Virus record (IMG/VR): IMGVR_UViG_3300044642_000803
Location: 2,887 to 66,886 of that record
Source of the DNA: a virus
Strand: one strand, 5' to 3'
DNA: 64,000 nucleotides
Part shown: in pieces, positions 2,221-37,845 of the stretch
Numbering within the stretch: the first letter of the stretch is position 1
How the letters are laid out: each line of letters opens with the position of its first letter
Program-made: the position numbers and the translations under genes
The notes under the pieces: generated by a model
What the model saw: the letters and a program-made list of their open reading frames with translations, nothing else
What the model was told of the DNA's origin: nothing
Database searches by the model: none

Positions 2221-2958
2221 TCAGCGCCCACCCACAAACTCGGCTACCACTCGATCGGGTGCAACCGGCTTGAGTTCACCGCCACGGGCCAGCGCGATCA
2301 GATCATCCGCCCAAGCGGGGTTGCGCACGGCCCATGCAACGGCAAGCACCGCACCATCGGTCTCCATGGTCCAGAAGCCTTGAAGGGCCTTCTCGAACCA
2401 CCATCTACCAACCTTGAGTTGCGCCGGGGTCCAAACGCAATCGTCAATCCCTTGCGCACGCAACCTGTCAACGGTCTGCGCAATGCGCTCAACGTGGGCC
2501 TGGCGCTGCGTTGCGCTCATCTGCCATGGCTGGTTACCTTCGGCGACGCCGGGAGGCAGCCTACGCACCTCAACCGGGGTGTGCTCTGGCCGCTGATCAA
2601 CCAGCTCATGGAACCGCGATGGATCCGCCATCCTGCTGGCCAAGTCACGCCGCAGACCCCGCTCAAACATCGGCAGATCGGTCACCACCTCCTGGCCACG
2701 CTCGGTGCGAGTGGTGCGCTTCACCGGGTACAAGTACCGCAGTAGGGCGATATGCGGCGGTGTTTCCCTGGGAAAATTGGGGTCCAGCGTTCGCTGCTGA
2801 GCTGCGTACAGCAGCATCTCGCTGTCAAGGTCGAGCTTTGCTCGATCTGGGAATGTGTCCCAAGCGGTGACAAGCGCGGCTGGGGTAAGGGTCTTGGCCA
2901 TGGGGAATAGCTGCTGCATCCCTGACATGACCGCCTGAAACTCTTCGGCCTCGATCAC
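2221..2958 (-). CDS. Hypothetical protein, possibly helicase loader/replication accessory by position
   Basis: GTGA overlap with the initiator gene stop; lambda O-P-like position. Confidence 0.55.
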   Translation of the reverse strand: MIEAEEFQAVMSGMQQLFPMAKTLTPAALVTAWDTFPDRAKLDLDSEMLLYAAQQRTLDPNFPRETPPHIALLRYLYPVKRTTRTERGQEVVTDLPMFERGLRRDLASRMADPSRFHELVDQRPEHTPVEVRRLPPGVAEGNQPWQMSATQRQAHVERIAQTVDRLRAQGIDDCVWTPAQLKVGRWWFEKALQGFWTMETDGAVLAVAWAVRNPAWADDLIALARGGELKPVAPDRVVAEFVGGR

Positions 2959-3995
2959 TGGATCACCTCGCACAGCACGGTCTGTTGAGATGCAATGCCG
3001 GCTGCGGCGGCGGCCTTGCGGGCGTCACGGGCCTTGATGTAGGCCACGGCCTGCGCAGCGGCTTCGTCCTGCGTCTGGCGGCGGTTGTTGCTGGCTTTGG
3101 TCATGCCGCCGTACTTGGTTCCGTAGAGCTGCCAGTTGCTGTACTTCAGCGACTGCCAGGGCTTGCCGTCAATGCTGGCGTTGATGCCGTCCTGCAGTTG
3201 CCCTCGCAGGATTTGGGTGCCACCTAGGGGGTCTTGCTGGATTTGTCGAGCCTGTCCCAGCATCCGGGTCCAGGCTTCTGGGGTCTTCTGGCCTGATCGT
3301 GTTGGCCAGAAGGCCAGCAGATCGGTGGTAACGGCGGCGAGGTCTTGCGGCACGTCATCCGCTGACGGCTTGAACCTGGGTTTACGGGGCTTCACGGGTT
3401 TGGGCGGTGGTGGTGGCTCGGCAACGATACCGCCTTCCTGGGTGCTGGGAACCGCAGCGATCTGGGTCAAGGGCTCAGCCGGGAGCGCTTCCTGGTGGTC
3501 CTCCCGTGCGCTCCCCCCGTTGGGGGGTAAGGGGGGTTCTAACTCTTGTTCAGTTCCTCTTGTTAAATCCCTCTTGTTAGGGTCCCCCTTTTGGGGGAGG
3601 GGGGGGATCCCCCTTTTGGGGGAGGGGAGGGGTCCCCTTTTTGGGGGGTCCCCTTTTTGGGGGAGGGGTCCCCCTTTTGAGGGAGGGGCCTGCTCGTATC
3701 TCACATGAAAAAGCGCCGTCTGCCCCACGCGATCAACACGACTGATCCAGCCGTTTTCCACAAGCCACCGCAGGCTTGATCGAACGTGGTCCTCCTTCAT
3801 GCGGCACTCCATAGCCAGCCGAGCGATTGATGGGAACGCCTGGTCGTTCTGGCCGGCGTAGTGCCACAGCCAGGAGTAAACAAAGAGGGTCCCCTTGCGA
3901 TCTGCGCAGGTTTCGAGCAATGCGATCGGCACCTGGGCAAAGCGCGGCCGCGTGATACGTGCTGCCGGCTCAACAGCGCCTGAGGCTTGTGTCAT
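2955..3995 (-). CDS. Phage replication initiator with N-terminal winged HTH
   Basis: LFVYSWLWHYAGQNDQAFPSIARLAMECRMKEDHVRSSLRWLVENGWI is an HTH_36-like motif, followed by PQKGDP repeats that reflect DNA iterons. Confidence 0.8.
   Translation of the reverse strand: MTQASGAVEPAARITRPRFAQVPIALLETCADRKGTLFVYSWLWHYAGQNDQAFPSIARLAMECRMKEDHVRSSLRWLVENGWISRVDRVGQTALFHVRYEQAPPSKGGPLPQKGDPPKRGPLPSPKRGIPPLPQKGDPNKRDLTRGTEQELEPPLPPNGGSAREDHQEALPAEPLTQIAAVPSTQEGGIVAEPPPPPKPVKPRKPRFKPSADDVPQDLAAVTTDLLAFWPTRSGQKTPEAWTRMLGQARQIQQDPLGGTQILRGQLQDGINASIDGKPWQSLKYSNWQLYGTKYGGMTKASNNRRQTQDEAAAQAVAYIKARDARKAAAAAGIASQQTVLCEVIQ
3580..3690. repeat. Five iteron-like repeats, putative replication origin
   Basis: TCCCC(C)TTTT(T)GGGGG-type palindromic units at about 3581, 3608, 3631, 3647 and 3667 (last copy degenerate) inside the initiator gene. 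Confidence 0.7.
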
Positions 3996-7613: not shown

Positions 7614-7982
7614 ATGAACACCACCATCAAGGCTGCGCTTCGGGCTGACTGGGCCCCTGCAATCGAATCCACTGCGCGTGCCATTGGCGTTGCGATTGCC
7701 TGCGTGATCGTCGCCGCCGACTGGCTGCGCTTCACCTGGCAGCACCCATGGGCAGGGTTGCGAGCGCTGGAGCTTCCCAACGCCGCTGCCAGCTCCCCTC
7801 AATCCGCTGCCAGCTCTCCTCGATCGGCGCTTAGCTCCCCTCAATCCGAGCGCGTGGCGCCCTTGTTGCTTCTCCCTGCCCCCGCGTTCCTGCTACTGGC
7901 CCCGGCACAGGAGCCGATCGCTCCGGCCCCAGCACCCCGCAAACGCGGACATCGCGCCACCCGGCAACCGAAGGTGGCGTAA
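7614..7982 (+). CDS. Hypothetical protein with short Ser/Pro-rich repeats
   Basis: ATG at 7614; AASSPQS-like repeats. Confidence 0.5.
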   Translation: MNTTIKAALRADWAPAIESTARAIGVAIACVIVAADWLRFTWQHPWAGLRALELPNAAASSPQSAASSPRSALSSPQSERVAPLLLLPAPAFLLLAPAQEPIAPAPAPRKRGHRATRQPKVA

Positions 7983-7986
7983 GGGC

Positions 7987-8017
7987 AAAAAAAGGGGGCC
8001 CATCCCGGCCCCCCCCC
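7987..8017 (-). terminator. Terminator closing the RAMP cassette
   Basis: On the minus strand, GGGGGCC-loop-GGCCCCC followed by T7. Confidence 0.7.
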
Positions 8018-8035
8018 TCGTCCTCTTGGGTATTT

Positions 8036-8593
8036 TTACCCAACCTCTTGCGGTTCACGCTCCCATGTGCTTGAGAGCTGACCGTTTGTGAGCGCTTCAT
8101 GAGCCTCTTCCAGCAGCCCAAACGCCACCCCCAACGCAATCATTGAACGGCGATCACCCATTCGCTGGGTGCGCAGCTTCAACGCTTCGATACTGCGCCG
8201 CGCTTCCGTCACCAGTCCTACCGCCTGCTGTACCTCACGGGTTATTGGGCTGTACTGCTCAACTACAGGAGGGGCCACCGTGGTTACGGGTCGCACCGAT
8301 GTCACGCGAGGCTCCTGCGAAGCGTTTGGCACCACCCGCACCACCTTGATCAGCTTGCTGGCCTGGTGCTCTCGCCATTGCTCGGCCGCCACCGGATCAC
8401 GCCATTCAAACGCCGGGTGCAGTGGCGCATCTTCGGGGCGGGCTTCATCGACTACCGCCGCAGGCTTGATCGTGCCATCACGGCGGCGAATGCGGTCTAG
8501 TTCGCTGCCAGCCGTCTGGGCATCAATGCCTAGCACCTCATCGCCATCTTCGATCCTGAAAGTGAATTCGGGTTCATCTTTGGTGAAATTCAT
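8036..8593 (-). CDS. Conserved phage protein, accessory gene of the RAMP/pentamer-array cassette
   Basis: ELDRIRRRDGTIKPAAVVDEARPEDAPLHPAFEWRD..AAEQWR..QA..LI; ATG at 8593 follows the array's 3' hairpin. Confidence 0.75.
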   Translation of the reverse strand: MNFTKDEPEFTFRIEDGDEVLGIDAQTAGSELDRIRRRDGTIKPAAVVDEARPEDAPLHPAFEWRDPVAAEQWREHQASKLIKVVRVVPNASQEPRVTSVRPVTTVAPPVVEQYSPITREVQQAVGLVTEARRSIEALKLRTQRMGDRRSMIALGVAFGLLEEAHEALTNGQLSSTWEREPQEVG

Positions 8594-8611
8594 CTGATCA
8601 GTGGGTAAAGG

Positions 8612-9407
8612 GAATGAGGGGGCCCATTCAAGCCCCCATTCTGCTGCCATTTGGCATCTGCAACAACGCCGGCAATACCTTGCGGTGCCTTGCGCCGTCA
8701 ATCCAGGCCACGCCTGCCGCGCAATGCCGTGCAACACCGTGGGCCGTCAAGCCAGGCCACGCCTGCCTCTCCTCTCCTTTCCTTGCCATGCCTTGCAAAC
8801 CAGTCCTAGCCACGCCTGCAATGCCATATCTCTCCAGGCCACGCCGTGCCTTGCCGGTCCTGCGGGGCCAATTCCGGCCTACCGAGCCATGCCTGCCTCG
8901 CGTTACCAAGCCCATCGGTGCCCACCGGTCCACGCCACGCCTGCATCGCGCTGCCAAGCGCTGCCTTGCCTAACCATGCCTGCCGTGCCTCGAACGCACC
9001 TGGCCTCGCCACGCCGTGCCTGCAGTGCCGAGCAGAACCATGCCGGTCCACGCCACGCCTGCCAATCCGATCCTGGCCCATCCATCGCTGCCTCACCTGC
9101 CGCGCCTGACCTGGCAACGCCATGCCTCGCCTGCCGCGCCTGTTCGTGGCTCTCCGGGCCTTGCCTGCATCGCCGTACCTTGCACTATCCCGACCACGCC
9201 TAGCCAGCCGTGTCTGAACAGGCCGTACCTTGCGAAGCCATGCCTGCCATTCCGGGCCAACCTGACCGTGCCACTCCTGCCAATCCATACCACGCCCTTT
9301 CGTGCGGAGCCTTGCCTAACCGGCCGTGCCAGCAAAACCTTGGGACGCCGCGCCTTGCCTATCCGGCCATGCCAGGCCCTGGCTGCCGTAAAACAATCGC
9401 CAGGGCC
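8612..9407 (-). ncRNA. Putative guide-RNA array: GG(C/T/A)NN pentamers grouped into ~16 units by NGCA tetramers, flanked by hairpins
   Basis: Minus strand parses as e.g. GGCA|GGCGT GGCGT GGACC GGCAT GGTTC TGCTC GGCAC TGCA|GGCAC GGCGT GGCGA GGCCA. The 5-nt period is not codon-like. 5' hairpin at 9375-9407 and 3' hairpin at about 8612-8641. Confidence 0.7.
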
Positions 9408-9418
9408 ACGATCAATCA

Positions 9419-10066
9419 TCAAACAATCTCAAACAGCCCAAACCCAAGCCCTGCGCTGTTTTTGCTGTCGGGTCGTCCTTCGCCGATACCAACCTGAAGC
9501 CCCACTCGGCTGATCAAGTTGACCATGCTGGTTGCGGTAAACATCCCAGCGTCGTACCGGATTCGTAAATTTGCTGCCCACTCTCTATACATCGGACGGC
9601 AACGTAGATCAATTACACCCGTGGCATTACGAGTAGGAGCTGTCCACTCTTCTGCTTCGCCCTCCGTCAGCCTGACCAAGGGGGCTCCGTCAACCCGGTC
9701 AAAGCCATCGGCGTACACACTGAACGCCAATTTGGCGTGGGTCATTTTGACCTGCACGGTACGACAGGCGGAAATGGCGCCGTTCCTGAATGCGGCGGCA
9801 TGGATCCCTTCCCATCCTTCCCCGGAGACGTGCTTGGCGCTCTCAAAAAGAGCGGTAAAATCCTTTGCCTCGCGCACCTTCTTGCCTCGGGCGGTGCTGC
9901 CCGCTTCCTGCGTGGCTCGCATCTGTTCCATAGCTTTTGCGCTGAAGCGATTGATGACCAATGGGCTGGTGCCCCTAATCTTGATCTCAATGAGCCTGAA
10001 GTCAGGGGCCTGAATAGTGATGGCCTCTTCTGGTGCCTGGGATTTGGCCTTGGTGGTGGTTGCCAT
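9419..10066 (-). CDS. RAMP (Cas7-like RRM-fold) protein
   Basis: 215 aa from ATG 10066: IKIRGTSPLVIN first strand, GIHAAAFRNG, RPMYREW, and a C-terminal glycine-rich loop VGIGEGRP...GLGFGLFEIV. Confidence 0.75.
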   Translation of the reverse strand: MATTTKAKSQAPEEAITIQAPDFRLIEIKIRGTSPLVINRFSAKAMEQMRATQEAGSTARGKKVREAKDFTALFESAKHVSGEGWEGIHAAAFRNGAISACRTVQVKMTHAKLAFSVYADGFDRVDGAPLVRLTEGEAEEWTAPTRNATGVIDLRCRPMYREWAANLRIRYDAGMFTATSMVNLISRVGLQVGIGEGRPDSKNSAGLGFGLFEIV

Positions 10067-10178
10067 GGTGGCGTTCTGAATGATGGAGTTTGAAGATTGG
10101 TGCCATGCCTGCCGCTGGCTGTAAGCCGTTGCGGTCTTGAAATGGTATCGTACGTAGGGCAATACGAAACCACCACCG

Positions 10179-11456
10179 ATGACCACCGCTAAGGCCACGG
10201 CAAAAGCCAGCACCAAGGCCAAAGCCGCCGCAATCGCCAATGCCGCAGAGGCGATGCAAGACCACTACGCAGCTAGTGACACCAGCGAGGGCCTCTTCCA
10301 GGGCGCAACTGCTGCTGATTTCTTGGGCATCGGCACTGCCGCTGACGCTGCCACCACCGACGCCACTACCACTGCCCGGGACGGCGCCATCGTTCCAGCC
10401 GGTGAAGCCACCGCGATTTCTCGGTGGGAAGCCCTGGCTTTCAGGATCGCAGAAGCCGAAGAGAAGGCGCCCGCTAAGAAGTTCGACTACCGGGACGAAT
10501 GGGGCAACAAGGCAGCCCGTTCCTGGGTCCACGATTTGCGGGGTATCAAGGGTTCAATAGAGCGCCACAGGAAGGAGGCCAAGGCCGTTCACTTGGAGCG
10601 TGGTAGGGCTGTAGACGACAGCGCCAAGCTGCTGGAGGCCGCCGTTCAAGGGCTGATCGAGCCCCACGAAACCGCCATCAAGGCGATCGAAGCCGAAGAG
10701 CAGTCCCGCATCGACGCCCACCGCGCCGTGCTCGACCGCATCGCCGCACTGGCTGATGCCGCTGGGGCAGAAGGGGGAGACGGCATCATTGATGTTGACG
10801 CCCGATTGGCAGAACTTGCGGCGATCGATACCAGCACCCTTGAAGAGTTTGCGCAGGCCGGTCTGAACCGCCAGGCCGAAGCCATTGAGCAGCTGGGGCT
10901 GTTGCGGGACAAACTGGAAGCCCAGGAGTCCCAGCGTATTGAACTAGAGGCCCTGCATGCGCAGGCCGCCGCCCGTGAGGACGCCGACCGCATTGCGAGA
11001 CTGCAGCGGGAGGCGGTAGAGGCCGACCGGCTGGCCCGTGAGGCGGAAGCGGCAGCCCGTGTTGCCGAAGCGGAAGATCGGGCACGCAAGGAACGGGAGG
11101 ATGCCGCTACCAGGGAAGCTCAGGCGCTGGCCCAGGTGGAAGCATCACGCATTGCGCAGGAGGCTGCCGAGCGCCGACTTGCGGAAGAGGTTGCAGCCAG
11201 GAAAGCGCAGGCTGCCGCAGAAGCTGAACGGTTGGAGCGTGAGGCTAAAGAGGCCATGGATGCCGCTGCCCTGCGAGACGCTGCCATTGCCAAGCAGCGC
11301 GAACTACGCGAAAGCCTCGTGGTCGAGCTGGCCGAGGCGCTGGCCACCATGATTCCCGAAACCGCTGCTACTGCCATTGTCGATGGCACGCTGCACCCAG
11401 CGGTTCAAATTGATTGGGCACTGGTTTTTCCATCAGATGACTTCTGTCCGTTTTGA
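10179..11456 (+). CDS. Long coiled-coil phage protein
   Basis: Ala/Glu/Arg-rich helical 425 aa ORF. Confidence 0.75.
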   Translation: MTTAKATAKASTKAKAAAIANAAEAMQDHYAASDTSEGLFQGATAADFLGIGTAADAATTDATTTARDGAIVPAGEATAISRWEALAFRIAEAEEKAPAKKFDYRDEWGNKAARSWVHDLRGIKGSIERHRKEAKAVHLERGRAVDDSAKLLEAAVQGLIEPHETAIKAIEAEEQSRIDAHRAVLDRIAALADAAGAEGGDGIIDVDARLAELAAIDTSTLEEFAQAGLNRQAEAIEQLGLLRDKLEAQESQRIELEALHAQAAAREDADRIARLQREAVEADRLAREAEAAARVAEAEDRARKEREDAATREAQALAQVEASRIAQEAAERRLAEEVAARKAQAAAEAERLEREAKEAMDAAALRDAAIAKQRELRESLVVELAEALATMIPETAATAIVDGTLHPAVQIDWALVFPSDDFCPF

Positions 11457-13150: not shown

Positions 13151-13438
13151 GTGACCAACGCCTTAGCCAACGCCCTGACCACCATCAATCGCCATCCCCT
13201 CTGCACTGATACGCAGATCGAGCAGGGTGACACCAACGACCTGCACTTCTTCATTGAAAACGACAAGGTTGGGGACCCCTCCTGGTCTGCTGACCTTGAG
13301 GCCGACCTAGCCAGCTACGACCAAGACGGTCGCCCTTACACGGTCACCGTCTACCTGCCCCAGGAGCAGGACGACAGCGAGTCCGACGATCAGGGCCCCA
13401 CGGCTGCGGAGCGCAACCCCAGCATGTTGCGCGTTTGA
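13151..13438 (+). CDS. Acidic hypothetical protein
   Basis: GTG start after a TATGAT -10-like box. Confidence 0.5.
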   Translation: MTNALANALTTINRHPLCTDTQIEQGDTNDLHFFIENDKVGDPSWSADLEADLASYDQDGRPYTVTVYLPQEQDDSESDDQGPTAAERNPSMLRV

Positions 13439-13473
13439 TTGCTGCGCTTTCCGATCCACTTTGCCTTTTTAAA

Positions 13474-14247
13474 ATGACAACTATTACACCCAAAACTGTT
13501 GACGAGCTTCTTGATTATTGGCCTGGAAATATACCTTTCAAGGGCGACCTTGTCTCTGAAGATGGGTCCTGCATGTGCGCACAGGGTCAGGCGCTGCATT
13601 TCTTGGATGGCGTAACTTCAGCAGCTTTGCGCCACTACACGCAGACAACTGCCGACAAGCGAGTGGCTGAGCTTTTTGGTATCAGTCGAGCTCATTCTGT
13701 TTTGCTGCGCATCGTGAACGACCGCCAAGATGGTGCGCCGACTAGCGTTATTCGCAATCCCCAACAAGTATTGGGTGACCAAGCGCAGTGCGTACTTGCG
13801 TTTTGGCGGCACCTTGACCGCATGACAGCAGCGGCCTGGGAAGCGGCCGGGGAAGCGGCCGGGGAAGAGGCCAGGGCAGCGGCCGGGGCAGCGGCCGGGG
13901 AAGCGGCCTGGGAAGCGGCCTGGGAAGCGGCCGGGGAAGCGGCCAGGGCAGCGGCCGGGGCAGCGGCCGGGGAAACGGCCTGGGAAGCGGCCGGGGAAGC
14001 GGCCAGGGCAGCGGCCGGGGCAGCGGCCGGGGAAACGGCCTGGGAAGCGGCCGGGGCAGCGGCCAGGGAAGCGGCCAGGGCAGCGGCCGGGGCAGCGGCC
14101 GGGGCAGCGGCCTGGGCAACCAATGAAATCCAAGGTGCCGCCGTCATGCGTGCCAAGGGTCTGCCGTTCTTTTTTCTACCGCTTTTTGGGTTTGCGGACC
14201 CAGAAGCCGTGATGGCAGCAGACAGCAATTTGAGTCGCACCGCCTAA
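13474..14247 (+). CDS. Phage protein with AA(W/G/R)(E/A) tetrapeptide repeat tract
   Basis: ATG at 13474; globular ends flank the repeat. Confidence 0.7.
13831..14118 (+). repeat. 24 x 12-bp in-frame tandem repeat GCGGCC(T/G/A)GGG(A/C)A
   Basis: Directly visible; 288 nt. Confidence 0.9.
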
Positions 14248-23486: not shown

Positions 23487-23857
23487 TCACCCAACCCACC
23501 CAACCGATGGACACCCCCCGCGACCCGCACCTTCCGCCCCCTGCGGTCGTTGATTGGCTGCTGGAACAGAACTGGTCGGAGATGATCCCCGTAACCTTGA
23601 TTCAATATCACGGCTCTTTACCTCATGGGATGAGTCAAAGTAGGTTATATGAGTACCAGTTAGCCCTTTGCAAAATCGGCGCTGATACAAGTGGCCGCGT
23701 CTCCCTCCCGATTGAGGCGCTGGACGCTTTGCGCAAAGACCGGGACGCTCGCCAATCCGCCTTGGAGCGGAAACGGCAGGATTGCGAAGCTGATGAGTTG
23801 GCAATCAAGGCAAAACGATGGTCAATCCGCATCGGTCCATTTAGCCGCCAGCCATGA
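23483..23857 (+). CDS. Hypothetical protein
   Basis: Coupled ORF. Confidence 0.55.
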   Translation: MITQPTQPMDTPRDPHLPPPAVVDWLLEQNWSEMIPVTLIQYHGSLPHGMSQSRLYEYQLALCKIGADTSGRVSLPIEALDALRKDRDARQSALERKRQDCEADELAIKAKRWSIRIGPFSRQP

Positions 23858-24945
23858 CCACCATCCCCAACCCGCAACCACAGCCCACCGATGGCAACCC
23901 TGAAGCTACCGAAGGCACCGCTGTCCCAACTGGTCGGCAAGCCGGTGGCGGGGACGTGGCGCCTTCGCCAGTCGTCGCAGGGGAGCCACCTGGAGCTGTT
24001 CCGGTTCGGGGGGAGCTGGACGCCACCATCGCCAGCGGTGAAGATCTACCTGACGCCAAGCCACGTCTTACTACTCGATCGCGGCGAGCTGTTCGTGCAG
24101 GAGAACCCCTTGAACAGCCGACCAAACCCGGCAGCCCGCCACGCACCGAGCTATCAGAGCGACTGATCGTCGAAAACCAGGGGCTTGCCCGCAAGGCCGC
24201 CAACAAATGGTCGAGGCTGTGCGGTCGGCCCTATGACGACTTCATTGGCCCTGCAATGGAGGGGCTGGTGAACGGCTGCCGTCGTTACGATCCCGAGCGC
24301 CTCAACCCTGGTACCGGTCGCCCGTATGCCATCTCTACCTGCGTCTGCCAATACATTGAGGGGCAGATCAAACATCACATTAGGGATCATGGCTACGATA
24401 TAAAGATGCCGTCAAAGTGGCGTGAGCACTACCCCAAGGTGCGCCGGTTGCTGGCCGAAGGCTTGAGCCTGGCCCAGATAGTAGAGGCCATTCCCGCCTT
24501 CACCGAGGCTGAGATCACCGAAATGATGGGTGCCATGATCGGCACTGTTGAGCTAGAAGACGAGATCACCCTGTTCAGCGATCACCAGCCCCAGGTCATG
24601 GATGAGAGCGTAGCGGCGGCGCTGTTCCGCCTCACTGAACAGGCATTTAACAACCTGCGGCCCGCTGATCGTGGCTTGCTGGAGCGATGGTCCGCCGATC
24701 CGTTCAAGCGACCCTACCCTTATGGGTCGATGGCTCAATTCCACAACCGACTGAAGATCCAACTGCGCGGTAAGACCCTACAGCAGTTCCGCCAGGGGAT
24801 GCTCGGCCTTGACGTGGCAACCGCACCACCAGCACCCAAGGCCCGCAGCCCGCGTCAGCCCCGGCCCGCCGTTACCTCGGCAGTTCAGCCGTCGCTGTTC
24901 GGCCGCAACCAGCGCAAGCCGCACCCTAGGGCGGTAAAGCTATAG
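23854..24945 (+). CDS. Phage sigma-70 family sigma factor (SigB/SigF-like region 2)
   Basis: ERLIVENQGLARKAA, YDDF...EGL....RYDP, ST....YIEGQIKHHIRDHG..IKMP. Confidence 0.8.
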   Translation: MTTIPNPQPQPTDGNPEATEGTAVPTGRQAGGGDVAPSPVVAGEPPGAVPVRGELDATIASGEDLPDAKPRLTTRSRRAVRAGEPLEQPTKPGSPPRTELSERLIVENQGLARKAANKWSRLCGRPYDDFIGPAMEGLVNGCRRYDPERLNPGTGRPYAISTCVCQYIEGQIKHHIRDHGYDIKMPSKWREHYPKVRRLLAEGLSLAQIVEAIPAFTEAEITEMMGAMIGTVELEDEITLFSDHQPQVMDESVAAALFRLTEQAFNNLRPADRGLLERWSADPFKRPYPYGSMAQFHNRLKIQLRGKTLQQFRQGMLGLDVATAPPAPKARSPRQPRPAVTSAVQPSLFGRNQRKPHPRAVKL

Positions 24946-28348: not shown

Positions 28349-28507
28349 ATGACAATGACCCGCCAAGAAAAAGCCGACGCACTTGATGATCTTTTTCAGG
28401 GATGGCAGCGGCTTTTCGCTGACATTAAGGAATGCCACCCCAACTGGTCTGACAACCAAATCAACAAAGTCGCGGTTGAAGTTGTTCTCAATAAATTACA
28501 TGCCTGA
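28349..28507 (+). CDS. Small hypothetical protein (52 aa)
   Basis: Manual translation MTMTRQEKADALDDLFQGW...; follows promoter 4. Confidence 0.55.
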   Translation: MTMTRQEKADALDDLFQGWQRLFADIKECHPNWSDNQINKVAVEVVLNKLHA

Positions 28508-28565
28508 CCCCCAGCCTGCCGGGAGCTTATCCCGGCAACCAATCCAATCCTCTCAGCAGCCAGTC

Positions 28566-28745
28566 ATGCCTGAAAAACGCTTCTTCCCCATCTCCTGCCG
28601 CTCTCTCTACTGCGGTGAGACGAACTGTCCCGCTACCTGCCCCAACCTGCCCGACTTGACCGCGTTCAACGCCTGGAAGCAGCGCACTGGGGCAACCCAG
28701 CCAGACCCGATCTGGAGCCCCACCTGCTGGCAAGCCGCCGCTTGA
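28566..28745 (+). CDS. Small Cys-rich protein
   Basis: MPEKRFFPISCRSLYCG...C..CP. Confidence 0.55.
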   Translation: MPEKRFFPISCRSLYCGETNCPATCPNLPDLTAFNAWKQRTGATQPDPIWSPTCWQAAA

Positions 28746-28822
28746 CCCCTGCCCGCTGGCCCTGACACCTCGGCCAGCCTGCAGCGCTCAGCTGCTATCC
28801 ACCATCGACACCATCAAACGCC

Positions 28823-29164
28823 ATGACCACCACCACCCTCCAAGTGACCACTCTTGACAAAATCATTCAAGCCGCTAATGCTGCCGTAGCGCTTCGGGGC
28901 ATTGGCCAGCTAGCCACAAAGAAATACGCAAAAATGATCGACACCCATTGGGCGGCGTACATGTTTGCCAGCGGCAAATATGATTCTGTCGATCTTTATT
29001 TAGAGTTGAGAGCAATTACATCAGCGCGACCATTAGAACATTTTTCGCAGCTTGGGAGCTGCGACTGGCCGGTGCTGGCCGCTTTCATAGGCGGCCAGCA
29101 CCAACCGACAGGCGTCAAGCCGGTCAAAATGCGCCGATTAAACCACCATGCAAGCTCGCTCTAG
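28823..29164 (+). CDS. Hypothetical protein
   Basis: ORF. Confidence 0.55.
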   Translation: MTTTTLQVTTLDKIIQAANAAVALRGIGQLATKKYAKMIDTHWAAYMFASGKYDSVDLYLELRAITSARPLEHFSQLGSCDWPVLAAFIGGQHQPTGVKPVKMRRLNHHASSL

Positions 29165-33324: not shown

Positions 33325-33360
33325 GGGTGATGGTTGACAATGTGGTTGACAAAGCGCGGC

Positions 33361-33591
33361 TCAGTGGTTGTCAAACCCGATGTGGAGCCACTGGCAAGGC
33401 TCAATCGTCAGAGGGGCAGGCCAACGCTCGTGGGTTTCCACTCTCCCACCTTCGGTCATGGTGCCCTTGATCACCTCCCCCGTGTCTGGGTCACAGGCCA
33501 GCACGCCAAACAACAAACGCCCGAGGCGGTCGCGGACTATGGCCCCGTTGGGGTACTGCTGGCGGAAGGTGGGGGAGTTGGCGTCAATCAT
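33361..33591 (-). CDS. Hypothetical protein
   Basis: Coupled ORF. Confidence 0.55.
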   Translation of the reverse strand: MIDANSPTFRQQYPNGAIVRDRLGRLLFGVLACDPDTGEVIKGTMTEGGRVETHERWPAPLTIEPCQWLHIGFDNH

Positions 33592-34348
33592 GGGGGATGC
33601 CCTTCAAGAGTTCGGCGATACGGATAAGCTGCTTGTCGGTCAACTGCATCAGATCAGGTTGCTCGGCTGCCACGCACTCCGCGGCAGCTTCCAGCGCTGC
33701 CACCAGTTCAGCCACCTCCCCCTGCGCTGGCAGGGCCACGGGACCATCGTGGCAGCCGCTGAACCCAGGATGCGCCAGGATCGCCTCAGCCAGGGCTGCA
33801 GCGCCTAATACAAAGGTGTTGCGATCGCTTTTGAGGTCCACTTCCATGATGATCTCGGCCAGTCGCAGGACATGACCTACGCGGGGAGGGAGCCCAGGCG
33901 AGGCCGTGGCAGCAGCCCGAGGATCTGCTCCACCATGCAGCACATCAAGGTGCTGGCTTGGCGTCAGGCCGCCAGAGAAATCGGGGTCATGCAGCTCGGC
34001 CAGGTTCACCGTCTGGGCTGCGGGCTGGGCAACCGGAGCACGCCAGCGGGTGATGGCGGAGGTGATCATGTCGCGCAGGATTGAAAGGCTCGTGGCGTCG
34101 TCGCTGTCAAGAGGAAACCCAAACTCTTGACACAGCTCGACAACGTCGTCAACGCTCGGCCCTTCTGCGTGGTCTGCGGCTGCGGAAGGGCTGGCCTGGG
34201 GCTGCGCATAAAGCGCCATGTCGCAGTCGGGGTGGGGCTCACGCCAGCCACTGAAAGACTGCACCTTCTGGAGGGCAGCGCTGAAGTCATCGGATCGGCA
34301 CCACGCGACTGGAGTAGCTGGCTGGGGTGCTGGGGTGGGGTTGGTCAT
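33584..34348 (-). CDS. Mosaic phage hypothetical protein
   Basis: PVAW..ALYAQP and EGPS..V.EL...ITRW modules. Confidence 0.6.
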   Translation of the reverse strand: MTNPTPAPQPATPVAWCRSDDFSAALQKVQSFSGWREPHPDCDMALYAQPQASPSAAADHAEGPSVDDVVELCQEFGFPLDSDDATSLSILRDMITSAITRWRAPVAQPAAQTVNLAELHDPDFSGGLTPSQHLDVLHGGADPRAAATASPGLPPRVGHVLRLAEIIMEVDLKSDRNTFVLGAAALAEAILAHPGFSGCHDGPVALPAQGEVAELVAALEAAAECVAAEQPDLMQLTDKQLIRIAELLKGIPHD

Positions 34349-36934: not shown

Positions 36935-37401
36935 TGGCCACTAACTTTGCCGAATATGCCAACCTGAGGATGATCTGGACGCCGCCTGGCGCGATTGCCA
37001 ACTTCCGCGCCGGGGTGCCTGCTGCTGGCCCTGCGGTGGTGGTCGAGGCCTTTGCCAAAAGCCAGGGCCGTAGTGAGCAGGATCTGCCGGGGGTGGTTGC
37101 GGGCTCGTTGATCCTGGAGGGCTACCTCACCCGTTGGGCGCTGCTGGGCTCCGCAAGTTGGCTGGTTGCCGGGTCGTCGCTGAGCTGGAATGAGACCGGC
37201 TACAGGCCGGCTGGGATGCTGCCAGGCGCAGAAGGCAAGGCAGTGCTGACCGATCTCACCGTGCTACCCACGCTGGCTGATGGTGCCGAACAGGGGCAGC
37301 TGCGGATCCTGGAGTTCCCGTTCGGAGTCGGCGGGATTGGCAGCAAGCTACGCAAGGTCCTGGGGGACAAGTTCAAGGCGGCCTTATCCACTGCAGTGTG
37401 A
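36934..37401 (+). CDS. Putative head closure/structural protein
   Basis: Position. Confidence 0.55.
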   Translation: MATNFAEYANLRMIWTPPGAIANFRAGVPAAGPAVVVEAFAKSQGRSEQDLPGVVAGSLILEGYLTRWALLGSASWLVAGSSLSWNETGYRPAGMLPGAEGKAVLTDLTVLPTLADGAEQGQLRILEFPFGVGGIGSKLRKVLGDKFKAALSTAV

Positions 37402-37404
37402 GCT

Positions 37405-37845
37405 ATGTCCATCCGCGTTGAAACCACGGTCACAGGCCCTGGGCCTGGGGAAATGGATCGGATGCTGCAGGAGATTGCCCGCAATACCCTGATCGAACTG
37501 TTCGGCCGGTATCAGGCCAGCTTCAACCCTGCGGCGTGGAACTGGCCACGGGAAACACGGCGCCGGGTCGGAGTGGTCGGCAGCCCGCGCAACATCGTTG
37601 ACACCGGCTCCCTGCGACAAAGCGGGACCTACAGCTTTATTGGTCCCTACACCTTGGAGGCCCGTTGGAGCGCCGGCTACGCCACTGCCGTGCATGAAGG
37701 TGCCCGCCTGCGCAACGGCACCATCCTGCCCGCCAGGCCCTGGACAGATGCGGTGAGTGGCGCGGTGCAAGCTCCAGGGATCCCCGTCTATCCACTGGGG
37801 CAGCGGCTGCAGCAACGGATACAGGTGGCGGTAGCGCGGGGCTAG
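37405..37845 (+). CDS. HK97 gp10-like tail completion/neck protein
   Basis: NIVDTGSLRQS...YATAVHEG...PARPW. Confidence 0.7.
   Translation: MSIRVETTVTGPGPGEMDRMLQEIARNTLIELFGRYQASFNPAAWNWPRETRRRVGVVGSPRNIVDTGSLRQSGTYSFIGPYTLEARWSAGYATAVHEGARLRNGTILPARPWTDAVSGAVQAPGIPVYPLGQRLQQRIQVAVARG

What the first reader, a model, noticed from the sequence alone, without database searches (positions are those of the whole stretch)
7987..10150. Candidate RNA-guided system: stand-alone RAMP/Cas7-like gene + GGN-NN pentamer RNA array + accessory gene
Seen: a 2.1 kb minus-strand cassette opposite to the surrounding operons. In order: a TACGAT -10-like box at 10147-10152, a 215 aa gene (10066-9419), a 9-bp hairpin (9407-9375), about 730 nt of GG(C/T/A)NN pentamers, a second hairpin (about 8641-8612), a 185 aa gene (8593-8036) and a terminator (8017-7987). 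Established: the protein has RAMP hallmarks (I.G.SPL first strand, C-terminal G-rich loop GIGEGRP..GLGFG.F), and RAMP/Cas7 proteins polymerise along guide RNAs with a fixed step. No cas1/2/3/5/6 or CRISPR repeat-spacer array is present in the window. Inference: each subunit grips a constant GGY triplet and displays the variable NN dinucleotide, so each unit encodes a discontinuous target, possibly against competing phages or host genes. I recall a recently described phage RAMP system with GGY/NN repeat RNAs (VIPR) of similar architecture; that recollection needs checking.
Basis: partly seen in the sequence, partly recalled or inferred. Interest (0 to 1): 0.97.

Follow-up and report, generated by a model that had tools for sequence, protein, structure and literature searches.

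The report
Phage VIPR RNA-guided silencing system
A lake-water phage carries a small Cas7-like protein, a long run of five-letter GGY/NN RNA repeats and a partner gene, which together match the recently published VIPR systems that phages use to silence rival genetic elements, so this is a real but already known kind of system.

Summary
The 215-aa gene (10066-9419, minus strand) encodes a single-domain RAMP. Its AlphaFold2 model (pLDDT 94.4) matches Csm3/Cas7 subunits at Z up to 11.8. A family profile finds one solved structure only, "SUSP1 Vipr protein" (E 2.1e-6), and aligns almost full length to the phiSUSP1 Vipr gene product (hhalign 95.5%, E 1.5e-8).

Directly downstream lie about 730 nt of GGYNN pentamers: 69 GG-to-GG distances of 5, against 19.7 +/- 4.1 in shuffles. 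The pentamer frame slips by -1 at GGCA junctions, which looks like the "staggered" vrRNA arrays of the VIPR preprint.

A 185-aa gene with no known family follows. It accompanies the Vipr homologue in all 33 phage records that hold either gene. A strong terminator closes the cassette.

Homologous loci show the same array: 14 of 15 IMG/VR loci, cyanophage Cy-LDV1, Mycobacterium phage Quico and Gordonia phage UmaThurman.

No cas genes, CRISPR array or Rfam family were found. Targets could not be identified, and expression evidence is weak.

Verdict: a new member of the published VIPR kind. The array is not the type II form, and the accessory gene is unlike SUSP1 vap1.

The parts
9419..10066 (-). 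vipr: 215-aa single-RRM RAMP protein, a Vipr homologue. G-rich loop G189-P199 (GLQVGIGEGRP). R157 and R198 align with the SUSP1 RNA-contact residues R138 and R179.
   Evidence: PHROG 4652, no Pfam family. AF2 pLDDT 94.4. Foldseek and VIA hits to Csm3/Cmr4/Cas7, Z up to 11.8. Profile versus PDB: only hit SUSP1 Vipr, E 2.1e-6. hhalign to the phiSUSP1 gene product: 95.5%, E 1.5e-8, 173 columns.
9375..9407 (-). 9-bp G+C-rich hairpin between the vipr stop and the first pentamers. Its 3' arm overlaps the start of the array.
   Evidence: -22.8 kcal/mol, z -3.07, with 2 of 200 shuffles as stable. The stem is conserved in 4 relatives without covariation.
8651..9384 (-). Candidate vrRNA array: about 730 nt of GGYNN pentamers in about 25-30 frame-coherent blocks of 1-9 pentamers, joined mostly by 4-nt GGCA units that shift the frame by -1 (staggered-array signature).
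   Evidence: 69 GG/GG pairs at distance 5 against 19.7 +/- 4.05 in shuffles. Phase segmentation. GG columns vary about half as often as NN columns among 5 relatives. Whole-block indels of 43-53 nt. No ORF spans the array. No Rfam match.
8612..8641 (-). Short hairpin GGGGGC..GCCCCC at the 3' end of the array, before the accessory gene.
   Evidence: Present and invariant in relatives, but no more stable than shuffles, z -0.48. Its function is open.
8036..8593 (-). Vipr-associated accessory gene (vap-like), 185 aa. It has a conserved N-terminal domain (about residues 25-90, motif RP..APLHP.FEW.D..AAE..R..QA), a variable linker and a C-terminal helical hairpin.
   Evidence: PHROG 15946. Found in the same 33 phage records as vipr, always next to it. 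Alignment A3. No Pfam family in 39 members and no meaningful PDB hit. AF2 pLDDT 67.9. No similarity to SUSP1 vap1 (hhalign 0.6%).
7987..8017 (-). Intrinsic terminator closing the cassette.
   Evidence: 13-bp stem plus U7, -22.5 kcal/mol, z -3.25, with 0 of 200 shuffles as stable.

Best explanation
This is a phage-encoded VIPR (Viral Interference Programmable Repeat) system.

Proposed working:
1. The minus-strand cassette is transcribed from the divergent intergenic region upstream of 10066 (inferred).
2. The 730-nt pentamer tract gives rise to vrRNAs (inferred). Units probably end at the GGCA junctions and are roughly 34-49 nt long.
3. Vipr protomers polymerise along each vrRNA, one per pentamer. 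They hold each GGY and expose each NN. This is shown for SUSP1 Vipr and inferred here by homology.
4. The filament binds double-stranded DNA whose sequence reads NNxNNx... (the 1-nt skip rule) and blocks transcription. The likely targets are competing phages, prophages or satellites of the same host (inferred; no target was found).
5. The 185-aa accessory protein is an obligate genomic partner in this clade. It probably assists at the DNA target or in RNP assembly (speculative).

The system belongs to a Vipr clade that also includes lake phages, cyanophage Cy-LDV1, Cheoctovirus mycobacteriophages and Gordonia phages. This clade uses tail-less, head-to-tail staggered arrays rather than the tailed vrRNAs of the type II SUSP1 system.
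For: Protein:
- RAMP fold with high confidence.
- The only solved structure found by the family profile is SUSP1 Vipr.
- Near full-length profile alignment to the phiSUSP1 Vipr gene product.
- R138 and R179 of SUSP1 are kept as R157 (over 90% conserved) and R198 (invariant), and D177 is E196.

Array:
- GGYNN periodicity far above chance.
- Same strand, directly after the vipr stop codon.
- Arrays occur in 14 of 15 IMG/VR homologous loci, in Cy-LDV1 (two arrays), in Quico (upstream of vipr) and in UmaThurman.
- Frame shifts of -1: 24 of 29 in the window. Among the junctions between the ordered units printed: 4 of 4 in Quico, 6 of 6 in UmaThurman, and 4 of 4 plus 3 of 3 in Cy-LDV1. The whole-region counts, which include the edges of the arrays, are 5 of 7, 6 of 8, 6 of 8 and 4 of 6.
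- Relatives at 76-80% identity have regular units of 39-59 nt, mostly 5n+4.
- GG positions change less than NN positions among 5 close relatives: 13 of 183 against 29 of 184 columns, Fisher p 0.013.
- Indels of 43, 44, 48, 49 and 53 nt remove whole blocks.

Context:
- The genome is a 66.9-kb single-contig phage with terminase, portal, major head protein, tape measure, SSB, RusA and a replication initiator.
- No PADLOC model matched any of 18 ORFs. No Rfam family and no CRISPR-like repeat were found.

Published mechanism.
Against: - Nothing here shows that the array is transcribed, processed or bound. The RNA evidence is four lake metatranscriptome assemblies with short, low-depth contigs of relatives. 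They lie over the accessory gene (4 of 4 runs), over vipr (1 run) and over 180 nt of the array (1 run), without strand information, and such libraries can contain DNA.
- No target was found. Exact NNx patterns from three window guides gave 3, 9 and 26 IMG/VR hits. That is about the number I estimated for chance from an assumed size of the collection (no tool gave an expectation), and the hits lie in unrelated low-GC contigs. Three long guides from relatives gave 0 hits. None of 103 guides scanned against the genome and 18 loci exceeded shuffled guides.
- The window's blocks are short (1-9 pentamers, against 9-16 in SUSP1) and many pentamers are degenerate.
- W178 of SUSP1, which stacks on G2, is an invariant Gly here. 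H17 is Asn. K33 aligns with Glu in a poorly aligned stretch.
- The excess of NN over GG substitutions rests on five closely related sequences, and the pentamers were chosen on the window itself.
Confidence: 0.85

Rival explanations
1. It is a VIPR-family system that acts differently from type II. For example, it might target RNA (as its nearest structural neighbours Csm3/Cmr4 do), or it might recruit the accessory protein for something other than transcriptional silencing.
For: - The nearest solved folds in the library searched are RNA-targeting type III and type VII backbone subunits.
- The accessory gene is unrelated to SUSP1 vap1 and has no known family.
- One G2-contact residue differs: W178 is Gly here.
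- The array architecture differs from type II.
Against: - The preprint states that all seven VIPR types use GGY/NN or related vrRNAs and that the vap genes appear to be DNA-related.
- No nuclease motif or family was detected in either protein.
- The fold library searched ends on 2026-04-08 and does not contain the Vipr structures, so the ranking of Csm3 says nothing about the type of target.
Confidence: 0.1
2. It is a decaying or inert locus. The protein is a Vipr homologue, but the window's array is a degenerate remnant that no longer yields working guides.
For: - Blocks are short, and only 66 clean pentamers were parsed in about 730 nt.
- Relatives at 76-80% identity have much more regular units.
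- No targets were found.
Against: - The array is kept at similar length in at least four close relatives from other samples, with 83% mean column identity and with GG positions preferentially conserved.
- Both genes are intact.
- The vipr family is under strong conservation.
- The terminator and flanking hairpins are intact.
Confidence: 0.04
3. The pentamer tract is not an RNA guide array. It would instead be protein-coding sequence (as annotated for the equivalent tract of Gordonia phage UmaThurman, gp40) or a DNA-level repeat.
For: - Open frames of 109-160 aa overlap the tract.
- The UmaThurman tract is annotated as a CDS.
Against: - The periodicity is 5, not 3.
- The frame slips every few pentamers.
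- No single ORF spans the tract.
- Most indels among close relatives are not multiples of 3: 5, 10, 43, 44, 49, 53.
- The position of the tract varies in homologues (before vipr, after it, or on both sides of the accessory gene), but its strand and its link to vipr are constant.
Confidence: 0.01

Closest known systems
VIPR type II systems (Escherichia phage SUSP1, Pseudomonas fulva prophage): bioRxiv 10.64898/2026.04.26.720920 and 10.64898/2026.04.26.720927
   Same: - Phage-borne, minimal two-gene locus.
- Small single-RRM RAMP that is homologous along almost its whole length.
- G-loop GxGxxRP with the Arg kept, and the thumb Arg kept.
- GGY/NN pentamer RNA genes on the same strand.
- No cas genes and no CRISPR array.
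   Different: - SUSP1 has four separate vrRNAs of about 100 nt. Each has about 11-12 pentamers plus a structured 3' tail, and they sit on both sides of vipr-vap1.
- The window has one contiguous array of about 730 nt between vipr and the accessory gene, with no repeated tail and with GGCA frame-slip junctions.
- The accessory proteins are unrelated.
- Protein identity is about 21% over the hhalign alignment.
- W178 is Gly here.
Staggered vrRNA arrays of other VIPR types (legend of fig. S18 of the same preprint)
   Same: The legend describes arrays in which successive vrRNAs come from positions that overlap by 1 nt, so that the end of one marks the start of the next. A 4-nt GGCA unit followed by GG is a 1-nt frame overlap. 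It recurs at 24 of 29 junctions in the window and at every junction between ordered units in Quico, UmaThurman and Cy-LDV1.
   Different: I could not see the figure or the supplementary tables, so the identity of the architectures and the VIPR type number are unconfirmed. The window's blocks are shorter and more degenerate than those of its relatives.
Class 1 CRISPR backbone RAMPs (Csm3, Cmr4, Cas7 of types III and VII)
   Same: RRM core, G-rich loop and thumb. VIA-align Z is 11.8 down to 9.7 over about 135-150 residues spanning 20-215. These proteins polymerise along a guide with a fixed step (from the preprints).
   Different: No repeat-spacer array, no Cas5, Cas6, Cas10 or Cas1/Cas2, 10-17% identity, a 5-nt rather than a 6-nt step, and a non-contiguous guide code.
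TIGR-Tas tandem guide arrays (known to me only from passages of bioRxiv 10.64898/2026.10.21.760802)
   Same: Guide information is stored in short tandem repeats next to its effector gene.
   Different: The period is 18 nt and the effector family is different (Tas). There is no RAMP and no GGY/NN unit.

Membership tests
VIPR | Vipr protein: a small RAMP with a single RRM core, a glycine-rich loop and a thumb | tested here: met
   AF2 pLDDT 94.4. Foldseek found 18 hits at E <= 0.001, led by Cmr and Csm subunits. VIA Z up to 11.8, with 48 of the 50 listed entries titled as CRISPR effector or RAMP structures. The G-loop G189-P199 has G189, G197 and R198 invariant in 93 sequences.
VIPR | Sequence homology to an experimentally characterised Vipr | tested here: met
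   Profile of 93 sequences versus PDB: the single hit is 36pp_D 'SUSP1 Vipr protein', E 2.1e-6. hhalign to the phiSUSP1 product of 28474-29061: probability 95.5%, E 1.5e-8, 173 columns. The single sequence alone reaches only E 0.034.
VIPR | Residues that hold GGY in SUSP1 Vipr (H17, R138, D177, W178, R179) | tested here: inconclusive
   R138 aligns with R157 and R179 with R198 (kept). D177 aligns with E196 (conservative). W178 aligns with G197 and H17 with N39 (changed) (residue roles).
VIPR | Adjacent vrRNA genes made of tandem GGY/NN (YNNGG) pentamers, at least 4 units | tested here: met
   Eleven runs of 4-6 exact NNNGG units lie within 9367-8766. The first letter is C or T in 52 of 66 clean pentamers.
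VIPR | GGY conserved and NN variable among related loci | tested here: met
   Variable columns: G1 6 of 91, G2 7 of 92, Y3 24 of 92, N4 13 of 92, N5 16 of 92. GG versus NN gives p 0.013. This is weak, because it rests on five close relatives and the pentamers were chosen on the window.
VIPR | No cas genes and no CRISPR array at the locus | tested here: met
   PADLOC: 0 families for 18 ORFs, including both cassette genes and their neighbours. PHROGs on 90 ORFs: no cas-like name. Rfam gathering on the whole window: 0 matches. No CRISPR-like tandem repeat.
VIPR | A vipr-accessory (vap) gene in the operon | tested here: met
   The 185-aa gene lies next to vipr in all 33 phage records that hold either gene and in Cy-LDV1, Quico and UmaThurman. 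It is not vap1.
VIPR | Viral or proviral context | tested here: met
   A 66.9-kb single contig with terminase, portal, major head protein and tape measure. Relatives are in IMG/VR viral contigs and in isolated phages.
VIPR | vrRNAs are expressed and co-purify with Vipr | not testable with these tools
   Only short metatranscriptome contigs of relatives were found, one of them over 9157-9336. There is no strand or end information.
VIPR | dsDNA recognition by the NN code with a 1-nt skip, with natural targets in competing elements | tested here: inconclusive
   Exact-pattern scans of IMG/VR for 3 window guides gave 3, 9 and 26 hits, about my own estimate for chance. Scans for 3 guides of relatives gave 0 hits. 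A local scan of 103 guides gave nothing above shuffled guides. Only exact matches could be searched in the collection.
VIPR type II (SUSP1-like) | Separate vrRNAs of 9-16 repeats, each capped by a conserved structured 3' tail, with vap1 | tested here: not met
   No repeated tail-like element was found; the direct-repeat families are all pentamer tracts. The array is contiguous with GGCA junctions. The accessory protein is unrelated to vap1.
CRISPR-Cas class 1 | Repeat-spacer array plus Cas5, Cas6, a large subunit or adaptation genes | tested here: not met
   Only the RAMP fold is shared.

The most novel reading that the evidence does not exclude
The window's clade may be a distinct VIPR lineage. 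The clade comprises lake phages, cyanophage Cy-LDV1, Cheoctovirus mycobacteriophages and Gordonia phages.

- Its guides are written head to tail with a programmed -1 frame slip (GGCA) in place of tails or ribozymes.
- Its obligate partner is a protein family with no detectable relative among solved structures, in Pfam or in SUSP1 vap1.
- In the window the slips come every 1-9 pentamers. The 730-nt tract may therefore be read as many cooperating mini-guides or as multi-frame composite guides, which would be a different way to build specificity from the 9-16-repeat guides described so far.

If the seven published types and vap1-6 do not already cover this, it would be a new type.
Probability: 0.2. 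Interest if true: 0.6.

Novelty: new member of a known kind. Interest (0 to 1): 0.4.

Why it matters
- It confirms that a reader working from raw sequence alone can recognise a VIPR locus.
- It adds a well-delimited natural example from a freshwater phage. This example has a non-type-II architecture: a 730-nt staggered array placed between vipr and an accessory gene of unknown fold.
- The searches suggest the Vipr family is large and unannotated in metagenomes. There are 4499 proteins at 90% clustering and 2335 cluster representatives at 50% identity with E <= 0.001, and none of the 120 listed carries a Pfam domain.
- Close cousins sit in easily handled Mycobacterium smegmatis and Gordonia terrae phages, next to the immunity and excision genes. 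The staggered-array processing and the accessory protein could be tested at the bench in those phages.

Tried and rejected
**Target hunting**
- NNx patterns from three window guides were scanned in IMG/VR. They gave 3, 9 and 26 hits. That is about what I estimated for chance for 17, 17 and 16 specified bases, using an assumed size of the collection; no tool gave an expectation.
- The 3 hits of the first guide are one gene family in low-GC contigs, one of which carries a GVMAG label. The other hits have 19-68% GC and no similarity to this phage.
- Long guides from Quico, L009 and L015 (20-22 specified bases) gave 0 hits.
- A local scan of 103 guides of at least 7 pentamers against the genome and 18 loci found no match above shuffled guides.
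- Only exact matches can be searched in the collection, so targets matching at 80-95% would be missed.

**Accessory protein**
- Pfam gave only DUF7586 at E 0.1, below its cutoff, and no family in 39 members.
- The PDB profile search gave only coiled-coil-like noise, best E 0.0079.
- Foldseek gave nothing at E <= 0.001.
- VIA-wide matched only the C-terminal helical hairpin to generic hairpins, Z 8-10. The N-terminal domain is modelled at low confidence.
- The Atlas gave unnamed viral clusters only.

**Complex prediction.** The Vipr plus accessory-protein job returned 'no answer' (score 0.00). It is not evidence either way.

**Host and lifestyle**
- The species-genome scan gave one distant hit, 38% identity over 62 residues, in a Terriglobia MAG.
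- No integrase or repressor family was found among the 90 ORFs scanned with PHROGs. Lifestyle and host remain open.
- One 86%-identical protein is labelled as coming from a Burkholderiaceae MAG.

**RNA families and signals**
- Rfam gave no hit at E <= 1 on 7800-10400 and none at gathering score on the window. No hammerhead ribozyme was detected.
- The promoter scan found no minus-strand site.

Full report
**What is there**

On the minus strand of the window, the elements come in this order:
- a 215-aa ORF (10066-9419);
- a 9-bp G+C hairpin (9407-9375);
- about 730 nt without a spanning ORF (9384-8651);
- a short hairpin (8641-8612);
- a 185-aa ORF (8593-8036);
- a hairpin followed by seven U (8017-7987).

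The cassette points against the flanking genes. These are SSB and a RusA-like resolvase on one side and a 425-aa coiled-coil ORF on the other.

The window is 64 kb of a 66.9-kb single-contig genome. That genome encodes a large terminase, portal, major head protein, tape measure, replication initiator, dCTP deaminase and thymidylate kinase. It is therefore a tailed phage.

The DNA is held by lake-water metagenome runs. Four runs from four studies hold 73-94% of the sampled words, in addition to two runs marked as possible sources.

**The periodic tract is far beyond chance**

- The 734-nt tract holds 69 GG pairs exactly 5 nt apart. One thousand dinucleotide-preserving shuffles give 19.7 +/- 4.05, with a maximum of 31. 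Only 3 of 1266 equal-sized windows on either strand reach 60.
- Distances of 10, 9 and 4 nt are also enriched (53, 35 and 18), which is what a 5-nt repeat with occasional 4-nt units produces.
- Parsing gives 66 clean YNNGG pentamers. The first letter is a pyrimidine in 52 of 66, and the last N is almost never G (2 of 66).
- A phase-tracking segmentation shows the tract is a chain of frame-coherent blocks of 1-9 pentamers. The frame changes 29 times, 24 of them by -1, nearly always at a 4-nt 'GGCA' followed by GG. On my hand count (24 of 28), the binomial probability at p 0.25 is 2.4e-11.
- Period 5, the frequent slips and the lack of any spanning ORF exclude a coding reading.

**The protein is a Vipr**

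- Pfam finds nothing. PHROGs gives family 4652, of unknown function.
- The family is very large and unannotated. There are 4499 proteins at E <= 0.001 in the 90%-clustered collection, and none of the 120 listed carries a Pfam domain. There are 2335 representatives at 50% clustering.
- An AlphaFold2 model built from 93 diverse members is confident: pLDDT 94.4, pTM 0.86.
- Foldseek against the PDB gives 18 hits at E <= 0.001, led by Cmr and Csm subunits.
- VIA-align gives Z 11.8 down to 9.7 over residues 20-215. Of the 50 listed entries, 48 are titled as CRISPR effector or RAMP structures.
- A profile of the 93 sequences finds exactly one solved structure in the 2026 PDB sequence copy: 36pp, 'SUSP1 Vipr protein', E 2.1e-6. 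The single sequence alone gave E 0.034.
- I fetched the phiSUSP1 record using a recalled accession, which the record description confirmed. The profile aligns to the product of 28474-29061 over 173 columns, with hhalign probability 95.5% and E 1.5e-8.
- I compared the residues that the cryo-EM preprint names as holding GGY. R138 corresponds to R157 and R179 to R198; both are kept, and they are nearly invariant and invariant in the family. D177 is E196. W178 is an invariant Gly. H17 is Asn.

**The system is published**

- bioRxiv 10.64898/2026.04.26.720920 (Results, Discussion and methods sections 18 and 20 read, plus searched passages) defines VIPR. A VIPR system is a phage-borne stand-alone RAMP (Vipr), vrRNAs of alternating GGY/NN pentamers, and an accessory vap gene.
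  - The NN dinucleotides pair with dsDNA, skipping one target base per repeat, and silence transcription.
  - Natural targets are competing satellites and prophages.
  - Seven types and six vap families are described, including 'staggered arrays with overlapping vrRNAs'.
- The companion preprint 10.64898/2026.04.26.720927 (sections 5 and 6 read) shows one protomer per pentamer.
- Two later preprints extend the work. For 10.64898/2026.10.15.759431 I saw the abstract and outline only. For 10.64898/2026.10.21.760802 I saw searched passages only.

**Comparative evidence that gene, array and partner belong together**

- Of 15 IMG/VR loci encoding 62-95% identical proteins, 14 have a GGNNNGG-dense tract starting right after the stop codon on the same strand. 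Density there is 9-19 per 100 nt, against a background of 0-5. The 62% homologue, L016, does not show it. Three pairs of loci carry identical arrays, so about 11 arrays are distinct.
- Cyanophage Cy-LDV1 (54% identity) has two arrays, one on each side of the partner gene.
- Mycobacterium phage Quico (35% identity) has its array just upstream of the gene.
- Gordonia phage UmaThurman has its array between the two genes, where it is annotated as CDS gp40.
- In these three phages, every junction between the ordered units printed is a -1 GGCA slip: 4 of 4, 6 of 6, and 4 of 4 plus 3 of 3. The units there are about 5-16 pentamers long, with one unresolved block of 23 in UmaThurman. The whole-region counts, which include the array edges, are 5 of 7, 6 of 8, 6 of 8 and 4 of 6.
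- Lake relatives at 76-80% identity have regular units of 39-59 nt, mostly of length 5n+4.
- The legend of fig. S18 describes staggered arrays as vrRNAs that overlap by 1 nt. A 4-nt unit before the next GG is exactly such an overlap. I could not see the figure.
- Among the window and four relatives at 93-95% protein identity, the array is 83% identical. It differs by whole-block indels of 43, 44, 48, 49 and 53 nt plus smaller ones. Its GG columns vary about half as often as its NN columns, 13 of 183 against 29 of 184, p 0.013. The Y position varies most. This last test is weak, because it uses five close sequences and the pentamers were picked on the window.

**The accessory gene**

- The 185-aa protein (PHROG 15946, unknown function) has 136 relatives in the word-indexed search.
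- A tblastn search finds it in exactly the same 33 phage records as the Vipr homologue: 27 Mycobacterium, 5 Gordonia and 1 cyanophage. Many of these are RefSeq/GenBank duplicates. The two genes are adjacent in every case.
- It has a strongly conserved N-terminal domain with invariant R52-P53, L58-H59, F62-E63-W64, D66, A69-A70, R74 and Q77-A78. This is followed by a variable linker and a confident helical hairpin.
- No Pfam, PDB or fold match is informative.
- It shows no similarity to SUSP1 vap1: hhalign 0.6%.
- I therefore call it vap-like.

**What could not be shown**

- Transcription and processing. Four lake metatranscriptome assemblies contain short, low-depth contigs of relatives. They lie over the accessory gene (4 of 4 runs), over vipr (1 run) and over 9157-9336 of the array (1 run). 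These contigs carry no strand or end information, and DNA carry-over is possible.
- Targets. The window's longest frame-coherent blocks give only 14-17 specified bases. Exact scans of IMG/VR returned 3, 9 and 26 hits, which is about what I estimated for chance from an assumed collection size. The hits are in unrelated contigs. Longer guides from relatives gave none. Nothing in the phage's own genome or in 18 related loci beats shuffled guides. The absence of self-targeting agrees with the preprint's report for its own systems.
- Host and lifestyle are undetermined.

**Verdict**

This is a VIPR system and a new member of a kind that is already in print.

It is not the characterised type II form:
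- the array is contiguous, tail-less and frame-slipping;
- the accessory protein is a different family, of unknown fold;
- the window's blocks are unusually short.

The mechanism is shown for SUSP1 and inferred here: a Vipr filament on GGY, NN read-out of DNA with a 1-nt skip, and silencing of rival elements.

Noticed in passing
L018 3086-3425 (Gordonia phage UmaThurman, NC_031249.1, about 33353-33692): The CDS annotated as gp40 'hypothetical protein' (locus 3095-3418) is a GGYNN pentamer array with -1 GGCA junctions, lying between the Vipr homologue gp39 and the vap-like gp41. It is probably a vrRNA array mis-annotated as a gene.
   Followed up: partly
L017 2108-2357 (Mycobacterium phage Quico, NC_028751.1, about 37305-37554): The 396-nt gap between gp56 and gp57 holds a very regular GGYNN array upstream of the Vipr homologue gp57. 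The vap-like gp58 follows, and the locus sits between Cro/Ant and the Xis-domain gene. Twenty-seven Mycobacterium phage records carry the gene pair, so these phages of M. smegmatis would be a convenient bench model.
   Followed up: partly
L001 4646-4836 and 5454-5591 (Cyanophage Cy-LDV1, BK059895.1): There are two pentamer arrays, one between the Vipr homologue g34 and the vap-like g33, and one after g33 just before the excisionase gene. The position of the array relative to the two genes therefore varies within the clade.
   Followed up: partly
window 13830-14116: A 12-nt unit (AGCGGCCGGGGA) is repeated about 24 times at 88% match, inside the ORF 13435-14247 (270 aa, no PHROG). The period is a multiple of 3, so this is probably a repetitive protein segment.
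   Followed up: no
window 3579-3688: Iteron-like tandem repeats (GGGGTCCCCTTTTTGG, period 16-25 nt) lie inside the replication-initiator-like ORF 2955-3995. This is a candidate phage origin.
   Followed up: no
window 23854-24945: An ORF matching phage RNA polymerase sigma-factor families (PHROG 36098, E 5.8e-18) lies between the terminase and portal genes.
   Followed up: no
L019-L021 (IMG/VR contigs, 37-39% GC; L021 carries a GVMAG label): The only exact matches to one window guide lie in one conserved gene of low-GC contigs, with the skipped base at codon position 3 (peptide PNTVLDIM). I judged this to be a chance hit. It shows that an in-frame NNx match can persist across diverged homologues.
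   Followed up: partly
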